A DNA stretch of 64,000 bases from Escherichia coli. Lineage in GTDB: Bacteria > Pseudomonadota > Gammaproteobacteria > Enterobacterales > Enterobacteriaceae. This document shows, piece by piece, positions 18,001-27,000 of the stretch. Position 1 is the stretch's first letter. Every line of letters begins with the position of its first letter. The stretch lies in assembly GCF_041886205.1 (NCBI RefSeq), contig NZ_CP169029.1, one strand, 5' to 3'. Position numbers: made by a program.

Positions 18001-21000
18001 GCTCAACGTTGCGGAGCGCTTGCAGTAACGGCGAAAGGGGCAATGACAGCGCTGCCATGTCGACAAGAACTGGAATAGTGAGAAGTAAACGGCGAAGTCG
18101 CTCTTATCTCTAAATAGGACGTGAATTTTTTAACGACAGGCAGGTAATTATGGCACTGAATATTCCATTCAGAAATGCGTACTATCGTTTTGCATCCAGT
18201 TACTCATTTCTCTTTTTTATTTCCTGGTCGCTGTGGTGGTCGTTATACGCTATTTGGCTGAAAGGACATCTAGGGTTGACAGGGACGGAATTAGGTACAC
18301 TTTATTCGGTCAACCAGTTTACCAGCATTCTATTTATGATGTTCTACGGCATCGTTCAGGATAAACTCGGTCTGAAGAAACCGCTCATCTGGTGTATGAG
18401 TTTCATCCTGGTCTTGACCGGACCGTTTATGATTTACGTTTATGAACCGTTACTGCAAAGCAATTTTTCTGTAGGTCTAATTCTGGGGGCGCTCTTTTTT
18501 GGCCTGGGGTATCTGGCGGGATGCGGTTTGCTTGACAGCTTCACCGAAAAAATGGCGCGAAATTTTCATTTCGAATATGGAACAGCGCGCGCCTGGGGAT
18601 CTTTTGGCTATGCTATTGGCGCGTTCTTTGCCGGCATATTTTTTAGTATCAGTCCCCATATCAACTTCTGGTTGGTCTCGCTATTTGGCGCTGTATTTAT
18701 GATGATCAACATGTGTTTTAAAGATAAGGATCACCAGTGCGTAGCGGCGGATGCGGGAGGGGTAAAAAAAGAGGATTTTATCGCAGTTTTCAAGGATCGA
18801 AACTTCTGGGTTTTCGTCATATTTATTGTGGGGACGTGGTCTTTCTATAACATTTTTGATCAACAACTTTTTCCTGTCTTTTATGCAGGTTTATTCGAAT
18901 CACACGATGTAGGAACGCGCCTGTATGGTTATCTCAACTCATTCCAGGTGGTACTCGAAGCGCTATGCATGGCGATTATTCCTTTCTTTGTGAATCGGGT
19001 AGGGCCAAAAAATGCATTACTTATCGGTGTTGTGATTATGGCGTTGCGTATCCTTTCCTGCGCGCTGTTCGTTAACCCCTGGATTATTTCATTAGTGAAG
19101 CTGTTACATGCCATTGAGGTTCCACTTTGTGTCATATCCGTCTTCAAATACAGCGTGGCAAACTTTGATAAGCGCCTGTCGTCGACGATCTTTCTGATTG
19201 GTTTTCAAATTGCCAGTTCGCTTGGGATTGTGCTGCTTTCAACGCCGACTGGGATACTCTTTGACCACGCAGGCTACCAGACAGTTTTCTTCGCAATTTC
19301 GGGTATTGTCTGCCTGATGTTGCTATTTGGCATTTTCTTCCTGAGTAAAAAACGCGAGCAAATAGTTATGGAAACGCCTGTACCTTCAGCAATATAGACG
19401 TAAACTTTTCCGGTTGTTGTCGATATCTCCCTATCCCTCAACCGGAAAATAATAATACTAAAGTGCTTAGCCCTGCTAATAATCACCTAATCCAAACGCC
19501 TCATTCATGTTCTGGTACAGTCGCTCAAATGTACTTCAGATGCGCGGTTCGCTGATTTCCAGGACATTGTCGTCATTCAGCGACCTGTCCCGTGTATCAC
19601 GGTCCTGCGAATTCATCAAGGAATGCATTGCGGAGTGAAGTATCGAGTCACGCCATATTTCGCTATCAGGATTCTGTGTGATGGTTACATCGCCCGGCCC
19701 AGGGCTGTTTAGTCATCAGCGCTTTCTGACAGTGCTGAGATTTCAACCTGTTGCAGTAAAAATGAGTAGATATAAGGCAAGTGTGCTGCCAAACCCATCT
19801 TTTACGGGGTGAAGGTAGATTTCGTATGAAGGGTATTCGCTATTTCACTGAAGCCTGTTCCGTTCTTCCATAGTTCAAAAACAGAGGCTTTTTCCTCTGC
19901 TGTAAATGTTCGTCTCATTCAAAAAACCTCTGCAACCCCATGTTTTCACATAACTGTTGCGTTGACCAATTGAATCTACAACGGCTTTTTTTAATATGTC
20001 CCGTTCGTCGGTAACCCGCTTCAGCTCTTTCTGGAGACGGCGGATCTCGGCCTGAGCATCTGACTGTTCTTTATTAGTGGAAGAATCCGGACCGTACTTC
20101 TTTATCCAGGAGTAAAGGCTGTGGGTGGTGATATCGAGACGTGTTGCAACGCTGGCAACAGAATAACCGCGATCAACAACCTGTTTGACTGCTTCAATTT
20201 TAAACTCTTCGGGATAACGCTTACCGCTCATGGGCACCTCTCTTTAAGTCATCTTAAATGACTCTGAGGTGTCTATTAAACCTGTGGCGATTCATTCGTC
20301 TTGTTTATCAGGTTATTGATGATATGTTAATTATTGCGGTAGTCGCAGTAGGTAAACGTGAACGTAGCAACGTTTATCATCTCGCTAGTGAGCGGATGAA
20401 ATAATATCCCTGTCAGCACTCTTTTTTATCTGCTGCCGTTTTTTCCGGTGATTTTTTTCTGCATGCAGAAAAAAGCCTGCCCGGAGGGCAGGCATGAAAG
20501 ACAATCGCACAGTTAGTGTTGAAATTAATGATATCACGCATTATACCCGGTGGATACACAAACCATCCCATGTAAATGCACTGGCATCCTAATCTACGTC
20601 TGATAACAACTGCAATGGCTGGACCTGTGATTTAAGAGAAAGTTATTATGTTTATTGAATATAACCGAAGTGATAAATAAAAGTATTATCACCTGTAATA
20701 TTTATGCTTATTGCGTGGTTTTATCTGGTTATATAAAGCACAGATGTTCTCATTATTTTCTGAAAAATAACCATATGGATCGATTTCCCCCACCCAGCCG
20801 AAGCGGTTCGGCTCGTTCGGCGTGTCGTCGACACTGAAGCGCTTATCCACTTCGTTCCAGCGGTAAGAGTCGTCGCTGTCGCTGACGAATGCCATCGGGT
20901 CGCTAAACAGCGTGATCCGCCATGCGATCAAAAAGCGTAAGTGTTTCCGACAGACGAGCCGGTGAAAAAAGTGGTGTGTCTGGCAATACAGGCATCGTCC

Positions 21001-24000: not shown

Positions 24001-27000
24001 AATATGGATATCTTCTCCATAAACAGAGCAACCACCGTCGGGGCCATATCCCCCCTGAACAATACCGTTATTATTCAAAGTGATTTGATTTCCAGAAATA
24101 GCATCTCCCCCTTGTTTTATTCCATATCCTCCAGATATCATGTTGTCGTTAGTAATGAAAAGATTACTACCATTAATACCATCACCACCGTTTACGCCAT
24201 TACCGCCCAATATTCCTCCGGAATTATGCACTGTAATATTGCTACCGGTTACACCGGAACCACCTGTCCCACCTACATCATCACCTCCGTATATACTTCT
24301 GTAATTATCAACTATAATATCATCCCCGCTTAACCCTGCACCTCCGCTACTTCCTGAGCCACCAAGACCATTACCCCCATATACATTTCGGTAATTTCTT
24401 ATCAATATTTCGTTTCCACTGACAGCAACTCCACCATTATATCCATCTCCCCCCCAAATACTACCATTATTATTTAGTGTGAAGTTTACACCGTAGACAC
24501 CTGCTCCACCAATTGATGTATTGCTTGTTCCTCCTTTGATGTTAACACTACTTTCAACAGATAATATATTTTCATTATAATTGGTTTCAGGAGGCACGCT
24601 GATGTTTAGCGCCTCGTTTCCATCAGTACCTGTAATACTCCTGATTATGCTTTCAGAGATTCCATTACCATTGAGTTGTATTGTTTGTGCACCAGAAAAA
24701 TGAGATTGTACAGAATAAAGTACACTGGCCAGAAATAGTGAAATTCGCATTTTCTTATTCATACTATTTTTCTTTAGTGATGCATATTTTTGTCAACCAT
24801 GCAGTACATTATTTCATTGATATTGAACAGATTAGAAATAATATTTCCATTAAAAACAAGTGTCATTATACCTTACCACTTTCTCCTAGTTATTTACCGT
24901 ATCCAGACGTCTCGTGATACTTCCTGTATTTATTATAGAGTATATATATACACTAAGTTTAAATCATGGAGACAACAACCTTTTTTATATAAATTATTCC
25001 TAATGTTCTTGCCCCCTTATTTCCAGACAGGGGTTGTATCTTAAGTTAACATTACCCGCTGACGTCGATATTCTCGCGGAGAGCGATAACCCAACGCACT
25101 ATGCGGATGGTTTTCATTGTAATGCTCGATCGCCACTGCAAGGTTATGCAATGCCGTTCTTACATTCGGTTTCGGCATGAACGCGATGTAGTCTTCCTTC
25201 ATCGTTTTCACGAACCGTTCTGCCATTCCATTACTCTGAGGGCTACTGATTGCCGTTGTGCAGGGCTTCAGATTCAGCTCTCTGGCGAACTGCCGTGTTT
25301 CATGCGCTCTGTACGCTTAACCGTTATCTGTCAGCCACTGGATGGACTGTTCCGGTACTTTATCGCCAAAGCGTTTTTCTATCGCTCCTAACATCACATC
25401 CTGCACTGTCGCTTTATCGTAACTCCGAACCACACGGCAAACAATTCTGAGAGTTAGAGCGAAACAGCAAATGTTGCTGTATAAAAAATAGTCTTAGCGT
25501 GGGAAAATTTCCGAATTCCAAGCTGCCCCCTACGCTGGAAACGCCGAAATTTCCGATACAGCGAATTTGTTGATCTTTGAAGCATGTTTGGCAGGTTTTA
25601 ACGTGTACGTTTATGGTGCAGTAAGTGAGAATTTATTCGTACCAGCTATGGATACGTTACGGGCAGTGATTTTTCGCGCCAGGCAGCTATTTCTTTGCTG
25701 TCCGGTTAACGGCGGTCTTACGTACAGTGATCTTACCCAGCAATAGTGGACACGCGGCTAAGTGAGTAAACTCTCAGTCAGAGGTGACTCACATGACAAA
25801 AACAGTATCAACCAGTAAAAAACCCCGTAAACAGCATTCGCCTGAATTTCGCAGTGAAGCCCTGAAGCTTGCTGAACGCATCGGTGTTACTGCCGCAGCC
25901 CGTGAACTCAGCCTGTATGAATCACAACTCTACAACTGGCGCAGTAAACAGCAAAATCAGCAGACGTCTTCTGAACGTGAACTGGAGATGTCTACCGAGA
26001 TTGCACGTCTCAAACGCCAGCTGGCAGAACGGGATGAAGAGCTGGCTATCCTCCAAAAGGCCGCGACATACTTCGCGAAGCGCCTGAAATGAAGTATGTC
26101 TTTATTGAAAAACATCAGGCTGAGTTCAGCATCAAAGCAATGTGCCGCGTGCTCCGGGTGGCCCGCAGCGGCTGGTATACGTGGTGTCAGCGGCGGACAA
26201 GGATAAGCACGCGTCAGCAGTTCCGCCAACACTGCGACAGCGTTGTCCTCGCGGCTTTTACCCGGTCAAAACAGCGTTACGGTGCCCCACGCCTGACGGA
26301 TGAACTGCGTGCTCAGGGTTACCCCTTTAACGTAAAAACCGTGGCGGCAAGCCTGCGCCGTCAGGGACTGAGGGCAAAGGCCTCCCGGAAGTTCAGCCCG
26401 GTCAGCTACCGCGCAAACGGCCTGCCTGTGTCAGAAAATCTGTTGGAGCAGGATTTTTACGCCAGTGGCCCGAACCAGAAGTGGGCAGGAGACATCACGT
26501 ACTTACGTACAGATGAAGGCTGGCTGTATCTGGCAGTGGTCATTGACCTGTGGTCACGTGCCGTTATTGGCTGGTCAATGTCGCCACGCATGACGGCGCA
26601 ACTGGCCTGCGATGCCCTGCAGATGGCGCTGTGGCGGCGTAAGAGGCCCCGGAACGTTATCGTTCACACGGACCGTGGAGGCCAGTACTGTTCAGCAGAT
26701 TATCAGGCGCAACTGAAGCGGCATAATCTGCGTGGAAGTATGAGCGCAAAAGGTTGCTGCTACGATAATGCCTGCGTGGAAAGCTTCTTTCATTCGCTGA
26801 AAGTGGAATGTATCCATGGAGAACGCTTTAGCAGCCGGGAAATAATGCGGGCAACGGTGTTTAATTATATCGAGTGTGATTACAATCGCTGGCGTCGTCA
26901 CAGTGCCTGTGGCGGTCTCAGCCCGGAACAATTTGAAAACCATAATCTCGCTTAGGGCCGTGTCCACATTACGTGGGTAGGATCAATTTTCCTGATGACC

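What the first reader, a model, noticed from the sequence alone, without database searches (positions are those of the whole stretch)
19875..25450. Two different IS remnants bracket the autotransporter
An IS3-family orfA remnant (19875-20294) lies on one side and an IS2-like 3' remnant with an in-frame stop (25005-25450) on the other, both on the minus strand like the autotransporter. The cargo gene may originally have been mobilised as part of a composite IS-flanked unit, or the island has suffered several independent IS hits followed by deletions.
Basis: inference. Interest (0 to 1): 0.3.

Follow-up and report, generated by a model that had tools for sequence, protein, structure and literature searches.

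The report
IS debris around the aatA adhesin gene
The autotransporter is the known E. coli adhesin gene aatA, and the two insertion-sequence stubs beside it are real but dead leftovers of separate insertions and deletions, not the arms of a transposon; the IS-rich flanks of aatA were already described in 2010.

Summary
The boundaries need correcting.

- **Left remnant:** 19982-20294 is nt 1-313 of a 1229-bp IS3-family element. 19830-19981 is a separate 152-bp IS30 5' end that cut it.
- **Right remnant:** 25004-25423 is the last 420 bp of ISEc48, an IS2 relative. It is 99.5% identical to a full copy and 70.8% to IS2, and a Ser-to-TAA change makes the in-frame stop.
- **The gene:** the autotransporter is aatA, 3,498 bp, in the BL21-type flank variant.

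The composite-transposon idea fails. The two elements are different. Each keeps only its aatA-proximal end, and neither has a transposase. aatA plasmids carry exactly the DNA between the two IS tips (20295-25003) without either IS and with relE intact. Only about 190-213 of 664 aatA-positive complete E. coli genomes carry these junctions.

The region also holds an IS1414-like stub, a Tn3-family end, and an intact IS3 without a target duplication. A 5.6-kb deletion joint lies at 19830-19836.

This is ordinary and already published (Dai et al. 2010).

The parts
19830..19836 (.). Joint of a 5.6-kb deletion relative to the closest genomes. DNA downstream of cscB is fused to the inside of IS30, with only a few bases of microhomology.
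   Evidence: Window 19000-19836 matches L001 1564-2400 and window 19830-27500 matches L001 8001-15671. No complete E. coli genome in the collection spans this joint.
19830..19981 (-). IS30 5' fragment of 152 bp. It holds the left inverted repeat (tip at 19981) and the first ~29 codons of the transposase.
   Evidence: It is co-linear with the complete IS30 of L001, which PGAP calls an IS30-like element. The tip sequence TGTAGATTCAATTGG is the same as at K-12 IS911A::IS30A.
19982..20294 (-). Nt 1-313 of an unnamed 1229-bp IS3-family element. It holds IRL (tip at 20294) and orfA codons 1-83, and is cut just after the A7G run by IS30.
   Evidence: HTH_Tnp_1 E=2e-19. 99.4% identity to L010 2098-2410.
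20295..20404 (+). 3' 110 bp of a relE toxin gene, truncated by the IS3-family element.
   Evidence: PGAP annotates a RelE pseudogene in L001 and L003. On plasmid pHS30-1 relE and phd/yefM are intact, and similarity to the window starts inside relE at L004 6001.
20773..20886 (-). Short alkaline phosphatase (PhoX-like) pseudogene fragment.
   Evidence: PGAP annotation in L001, L002, L003 and L004. Weak Pfam PhoX hit, E=0.0089.
20884..21125 (+). 3' end of an IS1414-like element (IS256 family), 242 bp and frameshifted. It lies 139 bp downstream of the aatA stop.
   Evidence: 91.4% identity to the 3' end of an element that PGAP annotates as IS1414 (L017). The translation matches the transposase C-terminus.
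21265..24762 (-). aatA, the APEC autotransporter adhesin A gene. It is intact at 3,498 bp (1165 aa).
   Evidence: Pfam Autotransporter 7.8e-35, AC_1 2.3e-24, PATR, VID and Pertactin. The ORF length equals the published aatA. The locus is 98.3% identical to BL21(DE3), which the paper names as an aatA carrier.
24763..25003 (-). The 241 bp upstream of aatA that is shared with all other aatA variants. It holds a promoter-like site at 24866-24838.
   Evidence: Plasmid and fecI-type loci match the window up to 25003. The published predicted start sites are at -59 and -86.
25004..25423 (-). Last 420 bp of ISEc48 (IS3 family, IS2 relative). It holds the 3' part of orfB with a TAA stop at 25319-25317, and the right inverted repeat whose tip faces aatA.
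   Evidence: 99.5% identity to L006 2501-2920 (ISEc48) and 70.8% to IS2. rve_3 E=2.9e-13.
25424..25529 (+). End of a Tn3-family transposon: the 3' end of a resolvase gene plus a terminal inverted repeat (GGGG...ACGCTAAG read on the other strand).
   Evidence: ~88-92% identity over query positions 1-109 to plasmid sites annotated as recombinase or Tn3-family transposase. The repeat was read from the sequence.
25530..25727 (.). Non-coding plasmid-type DNA of about 198 bp.
   Evidence: 85-97% matches, mostly on plasmids, for example downstream of a microcin-type ABC exporter gene in L016.
25728..26985 (+). Complete IS3 of 1258 bp (orfA 25784-26092, orfB 26089-26955). It has no target-site duplication, so it marks a deletion or recombination joint.
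   Evidence: PGAP names it an IS3-like element of the IS3 family in L001. The flanks are CAG and ATT, and BL21 and 13C1079T continue past 25727 with different DNA.
26986..27107 (-). 5' part (~41 codons) of a papB/focB-like regulator gene, truncated by IS3.
   Evidence: ORF 26952-27107 runs into the IS3 end. PGAP annotates a PapB/FocB family protein.
28371..29811 (-). P4-type tyrosine integrase (28371-29588) and tRNA-Arg(CCT) (29737-29811). They form the anchor of the genomic island that holds everything above.
   Evidence: Pfam Phage_integrase, Arm-DNA-bind_3 and Phage_int_M. ARAGORN and Rfam tRNA. Synteny yfdC-tRNA-Arg-int in L001 and L012.

Best explanation
The window holds a decayed genomic island at the tRNA-Arg(CCT) gene of E. 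coli, next to the sucrose (csc) genes. Its cargo is aatA, together with a few kilobases of plasmid-derived DNA.

The two remnants come from two separate, unrelated insertions into that DNA:
- An unnamed 1229-bp IS3-family element landed inside the relE toxin gene.
- ISEc48 landed 241 bp upstream of aatA.

Both elements were later destroyed. IS30 inserted into the first one just after its A7G frameshift run, and later rearrangements removed the rest. ISEc48 lost its first ~900 bp, is now joined to a Tn3-family end, and acquired a stop codon.

Later still, an IS3 copy became the joint to a truncated papB-like gene. In this genome a 5.6-kb illegitimate deletion also removed most of IS30 and its neighbours.

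Neither remnant can move anything now. They travel with aatA only as passive passengers, within one flank variant (the BL21 type), when the larger mosaic block is moved between islands.

Shown: the anatomy, the junctions and the distribution. Inferred: the order of events and the way the block is moved.
For: Identity of the pieces:
- Each piece was matched to a full-length reference copy.

Plasmid aatA loci:
- They share exactly 20295-25003 with the window, at 96-97% identity.
- They have intact phd-relE on one side, and on the other side DNA that runs on to an IS91 remnant.
- The IS tips therefore coincide with the ends of similarity.

Other aatA variants break elsewhere:
- IS1 lies at 21259 in the fecI-type locus.
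- Another IS3-family element lies at 21168, and a complete IS2 lies 249 bp upstream, 8 bp from the ISEc48 site, in pLH50-c-A.

Counts in 5426 complete genomes:
- aatA is present in 664.
- The left junction is present in 190 and the right junction in 207.
- The whole block is present in at most 213.

The same block sits in different chromosomal contexts, and the shared stretch ends at IS elements each time:
- this tRNA-Arg island;
- next to setC in BL21(DE3);
- a third context in strain 13C1079T.

Signs of rearrangement at the IS copies:
- IS3 lacks a 3-bp duplication (flanks CAG and ATT).
- In relatives IS30 is flanked by GT and AC, so it lacks a 2-bp duplication. There it joins the IS3-family stub to the 3' part of IS911.

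Published description:
- Dai et al. 2010 (PMC2944236) describe aatA flanks with an interrupted IS2, IS91, IS1, IS30 and IS629, in three flank variants.
Against: - The order of events is inferred from present-day structures only.
- The outer halves of both elements are gone. A past phase in which one of them helped to move aatA cannot be formally excluded.
- Within the BL21-type variant the two remnants do co-occur with aatA at several chromosomal sites. Taken alone, this looks like co-mobility.
- The junction counts (190, 207, up to 213) come from separate searches. Co-occurrence in the same genomes was not checked record by record.
Confidence: 0.87

Rival explanations
1. The two remnants are the decayed arms of a composite transposon that once carried aatA as cargo.
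For: IS-family sequences lie on both sides of aatA, on the same strand. The block that contains them occurs at more than one chromosomal site. In pLH50-c-A aatA is tightly bracketed by two IS3-family elements.
Against: - The arms are different elements with unrelated terminal repeats: TGAATCGCCACAGG versus TGTTCTTGCCCCC.
- Only the inner, aatA-facing tips survive. No outer ends, transposase or flanking duplication are present.
- Plasmid loci have the same core with neither IS and with relE intact. The insertions therefore came after aatA was already in that DNA.
- About 70% of aatA-positive genomes lack both junctions.
- The shared block in other genomes extends beyond both remnants and ends at other IS copies.
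Confidence: 0.03
2. The remnants are inert for transposition but matter for aatA. The ISEc48 stub 241 bp upstream reads towards aatA and changes aatA transcription in this flank variant. This would explain the low aatA expression reported for BL21.
For: - The stub is on the same strand and immediately upstream of the aatA regulatory region.
- IS2-group elements hit this spot twice independently, 8 bp apart.
- Dai et al. measured about 0.16-fold aatA transcript in BL21 relative to IMT5155 and saw no protein band. They attributed this to a different promoter region.
Against: - The 241 bp that hold the promoter-like site and the published predicted start sites are retained and about 97-98% identical to other variants.
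- The stub has no promoter evidence of its own: the scan found no minus-strand site within 25004-25423.
- No expression data exist for this genome.
Confidence: 0.1

Closest known systems
aatA locus, flank 'variant 2' of E. coli BL21/REL606 (Dai et al. 2010, BMC Microbiol 10:236, PMC2944236)
   Same: - Same 3,498-bp gene.
- Same left stub (the ykgN-type transposase fragment), with IS30 beside it.
- Same interrupted IS2-like element upstream.
- 98.3-98.4% nucleotide identity over 19830-25727.
   Different: - Here the block lies in the tRNA-Arg(CCT) island next to the csc genes. In BL21(DE3) it lies next to setC.
- IS30 is cut down to 152 bp by a 5.6-kb deletion.
- An IS3 copy replaces the DNA that follows 25727 in BL21.
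Plasmid-borne aatA of ColV/ColBM-type plasmids (pAPEC-O1-ColBM type, 'variant 3')
   Same: The core 20295-25003: relE 3' end, PhoX fragment, IS1414-like stub, aatA and 241 bp upstream, at 96-97% identity.
   Different: - The plasmids have intact phd-relE and no IS3-family stub.
- Upstream DNA continues to an IS91 remnant, or carries a complete IS2 8 bp further out, instead of ISEc48.
K-12 CP4-6 prophage IS debris (IS911A::IS30A and the truncated IS30B beside the ykgN/insX fragment)
   Same: - The same first ~311-313 bp of the unnamed IS3-family element, 96.8% identical, abutting an IS30 end at the same position.
- The IS30-IS911 joint of the window's relatives is identical to K-12 IS911A::IS30A (PMC9333248 for IS30A and IS30B).
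   Different: - In K-12 the stub abuts the right end of IS30, in the opposite orientation, and lies next to yagB.
- No aatA is present there.
Composite (compound) transposons such as Tn10 or Tn5
   Same: A passenger gene with IS-family sequence on both sides.
   Different: - No pair of cognate IS copies.
- No outer ends and no transposase.
- No duplication around the unit.
- The unit is not a discrete block with IS-defined outer boundaries.

Membership tests
Composite transposon | Two copies of the same or a cognate IS flank the cargo | tested here: not met
   The left stub is an unnamed 1229-bp IS3-family element. The right stub is ISEc48. Their terminal repeats are unrelated, and the references used are different elements (L010 and L006).
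Composite transposon | Intact outer terminal repeats on both arms | tested here: not met
   Only the inner tips (20294 and 25004) survive. The outer parts are replaced by IS30 at 19981 and by a Tn3-family end at 25424.
Composite transposon | At least one arm encodes a working transposase | tested here: not met
   The left stub has only orfA codons 1-83. The right stub has only the last ~125 orfB codons and carries a TAA stop.
Composite transposon | Target-site duplication around the whole unit, and the unit recurs as a discrete block bounded by the arms | tested here: not met
   The outer ends are absent, so no duplication can exist. Blocks shared between genomes extend past both stubs and end at other IS copies. 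Plasmids carry the core without the arms.
IS3 family (left stub) | TG...CA termini with imperfect inverted repeats | tested here: met
   The full copy L010 2098-3326 has TGAATCGCCACAGG... and TGAATCGCCACGG... at its ends. The window keeps the left repeat at 20294.
IS3 family (left stub) | orfA with a helix-turn-helix, followed by an A6G-type slippery site and a DDE orfB | tested here: met
   HTH_Tnp_1 E=2e-19. An A7G run lies directly before the break. orfB is absent from the window, but the reference copy is annotated as a 1148-nt IS3-family transposase CDS.
ISEc48 (IS3 family, IS2 relatives) | Near-identity to a named reference copy, including the terminal repeat | tested here: met
   99.5% over 420 bp to the copy that PGAP names ISEc48 (L006), and 70.8% to IS2 in the same locus. 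ISfinder itself could not be queried.
AatA (APEC autotransporter adhesin A) | 3,498-bp ORF with signal peptide, passenger repeats, autochaperone and a C-terminal beta-barrel | tested here: met
   The ORF 21265-24762 is 3,498 bp. Pfam finds PATR, VID, AC_1, Pertactin and Autotransporter domains. The published length is 3,498 bp. The signal peptide was not tested with a predictor.
AatA (APEC autotransporter adhesin A) | Near-identity to the published aatA of IMT5155, BL21 or pAPEC-O1-ColBM | tested here: met
   98.3% nucleotide identity to the BL21(DE3) locus. The fecI-flanked (L005) and eit-flanked (L018) variants reproduce the published flank types. Adhesin function was not tested here.

The most novel reading that the evidence does not exclude
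Two target preferences may be recorded in this debris.

(a) The ~10 bp lying 241-249 bp upstream of aatA may be a preferred landing site for IS2-group elements. It was hit independently by ISEc48 and by IS2 in the same orientation, and such hits may tune aatA expression between lineages.

(b) IS30 repeatedly inserts at the homologous position just 3' of the A6-7G frameshift run of IS3-family orfA genes (IS911 and the unnamed element, in both orientations). This creates IS30 copies whose recombination produces hybrid IS stubs like the one here.
Probability: 0.25. Interest if true: 0.25.

Novelty: already known. Interest (0 to 1): 0.08.

Why it matters
It matters little beyond annotation. The result names the gene (aatA, an adhesin linked to avian pathogenic E. 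coli). It fixes the boundaries of six mobile-element pieces around it. It also shows that the stubs cannot mobilise the gene.

Spread of aatA therefore has to be explained by plasmid transfer, island integration and recombination at IS copies, not by a dedicated transposon. This agrees with the published view that aatA sits in variable, IS-rich flanks.

Tried and rejected
- **Looking for the source genome.** I searched for a genome that spans the cscB-side joint. None of 5426 complete E. coli genomes does, so the 5.6-kb deletion is so far private to this sequence.
- **First reference copies for the left stub.** I tried two E. coli plasmid hits annotated 'IS3 family transposase' (L007, L009). 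Both turned out to be chimeras with IS30 pieces. A true full-length copy was found only through a protein-level search of plasmids.
- **Assuming the DNA beyond IS30 in relatives is the missing half of the same element.** It is IS911. Its orfA tail is TALLMSDSLNSSR and its right repeat differs, so the structure is a hybrid.
- **Reading 25727 as a conserved right boundary of the block.** This was an artefact of IS3 sitting there in the query. BL21 and 13C1079T continue past it together.
- **Testing whether 25424-25727 is the missing left end of ISEc48, or the plasmid DNA that follows the insertion point.** It is neither. It is a Tn3-family end plus unrelated plasmid DNA.
- **Rfam scan of 19000-30000.** It found only the tRNA.
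Full report
**Setting**

The window is E. coli chromosome. To the left lie frc-oxc-evgAS-emrKY-dsdA-cscRAKB. To the right lie tRNA-Arg(CCT) (29737-29811, minus strand), yfdC, mlaA and fadL. Between cscB (18150-19397) and the tRNA is a decayed island of about 10 kb, with a P4-type integrase at 28371-29588. The finding lies inside this island. The closest complete genomes (strains wlxctx60 and 6EVA) are 99.9-100% identical over 19830-27400.

**The gene**

The autotransporter ORF (21265-24762, minus strand) is 3,498 bp and 1165 aa. It carries PATR, VID, AC_1, Pertactin and Autotransporter beta-domain matches. This is aatA, the APEC autotransporter adhesin A. Three observations support this:
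- The published ORF is 3,498 bp.
- BL21(DE3) is a published carrier, and its locus is 98.3% identical to the window over 19982-25450.
- The three published flank variants (fecI, ykgN, eitD) are all recovered among the relatives.

The window has the BL21-type variant ('ykgN').

**Left remnant**

- 19982-20294 is nt 1-313 of a 1229-bp IS3-family element. A complete copy, 99.4% identical over those 313 bp, sits on Enterobacter roggenkampii plasmid pWL374-3 (L010 2098-3326). Its terminal repeats are TGAATCGCCACAGG... and TGAATCGCCACGG.... The window keeps the left repeat (tip at 20294) and orfA codons 1-83 (HTH_Tnp_1, E=2e-19). PGAP gives the element no specific name.
- 19830-19981 is the first 152 bp of IS30, with its tip TGTAGATTC at 19981.

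IS30 cut the IS3-family element immediately after its A7G run.

In the closest genomes IS30 is complete. It is followed by the 3' 0.9 kb of IS911, not by the rest of the same element. The bases flanking IS30 there are GT and AC, so there is no 2-bp duplication.

In a K-12-type genome IS30A sits at the homologous position of IS911 with an AC duplication. The same first ~311 bp of the IS3-family element abuts the right end of a truncated IS30. IS30A, IS30B and the 2-bp duplication are described in PMC9333248. The hybrid is best explained by recombination between IS30 copies that had landed at the same conserved spot in two different IS3-family elements. This step is inferred.

In the window itself, a further 5.6-kb deletion runs from DNA downstream of cscB into IS30, with its joint at 19830-19836. 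No complete genome in the collection has this joint.

**Right remnant**

25004-25423 is 99.5% identical to the last 420 bp of a copy that PGAP names ISEc48. It is 70.8% identical to the IS2 copy in the same reference locus. The terminal repeat TGTTCTTGCCCCCTTATTTCCAGAC faces aatA. The in-frame stop is a TCA-to-TAA change at 25319-25317.

Similarity to ISEc48 stops at 25423. Beyond that point:
- 25424-25529 is the end of a Tn3-family transposon: a resolvase 3' end plus a GGGG...ACGCTAAG repeat.
- 25530-25727 is plasmid-type non-coding DNA.
- 25728-26985 is a complete 1258-bp IS3. Its flanks are CAG and ATT, so it has no 3-bp duplication. It truncates a papB-like gene.

BL21 and strain 13C1079T continue past 25727 with other DNA. 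IS3 therefore marks another deletion or recombination joint.

**Between the remnants**

The stretch 20295-25003 holds, in order:
- the last 110 bp of relE;
- a PhoX-like fragment;
- the 3' 242 bp of an IS1414-like (IS256-family) element (20884-21125; 91% identity);
- aatA;
- 241 bp of upstream DNA with a promoter-like site at 24866-24838.

**Do the flanks travel with aatA?**

aatA (at least 80% of the ORF) is in 664 of 5426 complete genomes. The stub/relE junction is in 190, the aatA-upstream/ISEc48 junction is in 207, and the whole 19830-25727 block is in at most 213. So roughly 30% of carriers have these flanks.

The plasmid-borne loci share exactly 20295-25003 with the window, at 96-97% identity. 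Similarity ends at the base next to each IS tip. On the plasmids phd-relE is intact, and the upstream DNA runs on to an IS91 remnant. The two elements therefore inserted into a pre-existing plasmid-type aatA region. What lay beyond them was later lost.

Other variants break elsewhere:
- IS1 lies 6 bp past the stop codon in the fecI-type locus.
- In pLH50-c-A another IS3-family element lies 97 bp past the stop, and a complete IS2 lies 249 bp upstream. That IS2 is 8 bp from the ISEc48 site and in the same orientation.

Within the BL21-type variant the block occurs in at least three chromosomal contexts. The shared stretch is about 7 kb and ends at IS copies each time.

**Verdict**

The composite-transposon reading fails every defining test: the arms are different elements, only inner tips survive, there is no transposase, there is no duplication, and the core exists without the arms. 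Dai et al. 2010 already reported that aatA is flanked by an interrupted IS2, IS91, IS1, IS30 and IS629 in several flank variants, and inferred horizontal transfer.

What this analysis adds is base-level anatomy and two small regularities: an IS2-group double hit upstream of aatA, and IS30 at the frameshift region of IS3-family elements. Interest is low.

Noticed in passing
window 20884-21125: A third IS stub lies 139 bp downstream of aatA. It is the frameshifted 3' end of an IS1414-like (IS256-family) element, 91% identical to an annotated IS1414 copy. It belongs to the core shared with plasmids, so it is older than the two remnants in the finding.
   Followed up: yes
L018 (plasmid pLH50-c-A) 7845-9075, compared with window 25004: A complete IS2 sits 249 bp upstream of aatA. 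This is only 8 bp from the point where ISEc48 sits in the window, and in the same orientation. These are two independent hits of related elements at nearly the same spot.
   Followed up: partly
window 19981/19982; L001 6937-8153; L014 3935-5157; L008 ~2999: IS30 lies at the homologous position in two different IS3-family elements (IS911 and the unnamed one), just after the A6-7G run of orfA, and in both orientations. In the window's relatives it joins the left part of one element to the right part of the other without a 2-bp duplication. This points to an IS30 hot spot followed by IS30-IS30 recombination.
   Followed up: partly
window 25728-26985 and 26986-27107: A complete IS3 has unlike flanks (CAG and ATT), so it has no target duplication. 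It truncates a papB/focB-like regulator gene at about codon 41. The fimbrial genes that such a regulator would normally accompany are absent.
   Followed up: partly
window 19830-19836: This sequence lacks 5.6 kb that its closest relatives have. The missing DNA holds a yeeU-type antitoxin gene, a JAB-domain gene, antirestriction and zinc-ribbon genes, part of IS911 and most of IS30. The joint has only a few bases of microhomology and was found in no complete E. coli genome searched.
   Followed up: yes
window 25424-25529: A 106-bp end of a Tn3-family transposon, with a resolvase gene tail and a terminal inverted repeat, is fused directly to the broken ISEc48. On a ColV-type plasmid (L015) the same fragment lies next to the eit iron-uptake genes. 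This fits a plasmid origin for the whole aatA block.
   Followed up: partly
window 27110-28370: A very AT-rich stretch (27% G+C in 27001-28000) with no long ORF lies between the truncated papB-like gene and the integrase gene.
   Followed up: no
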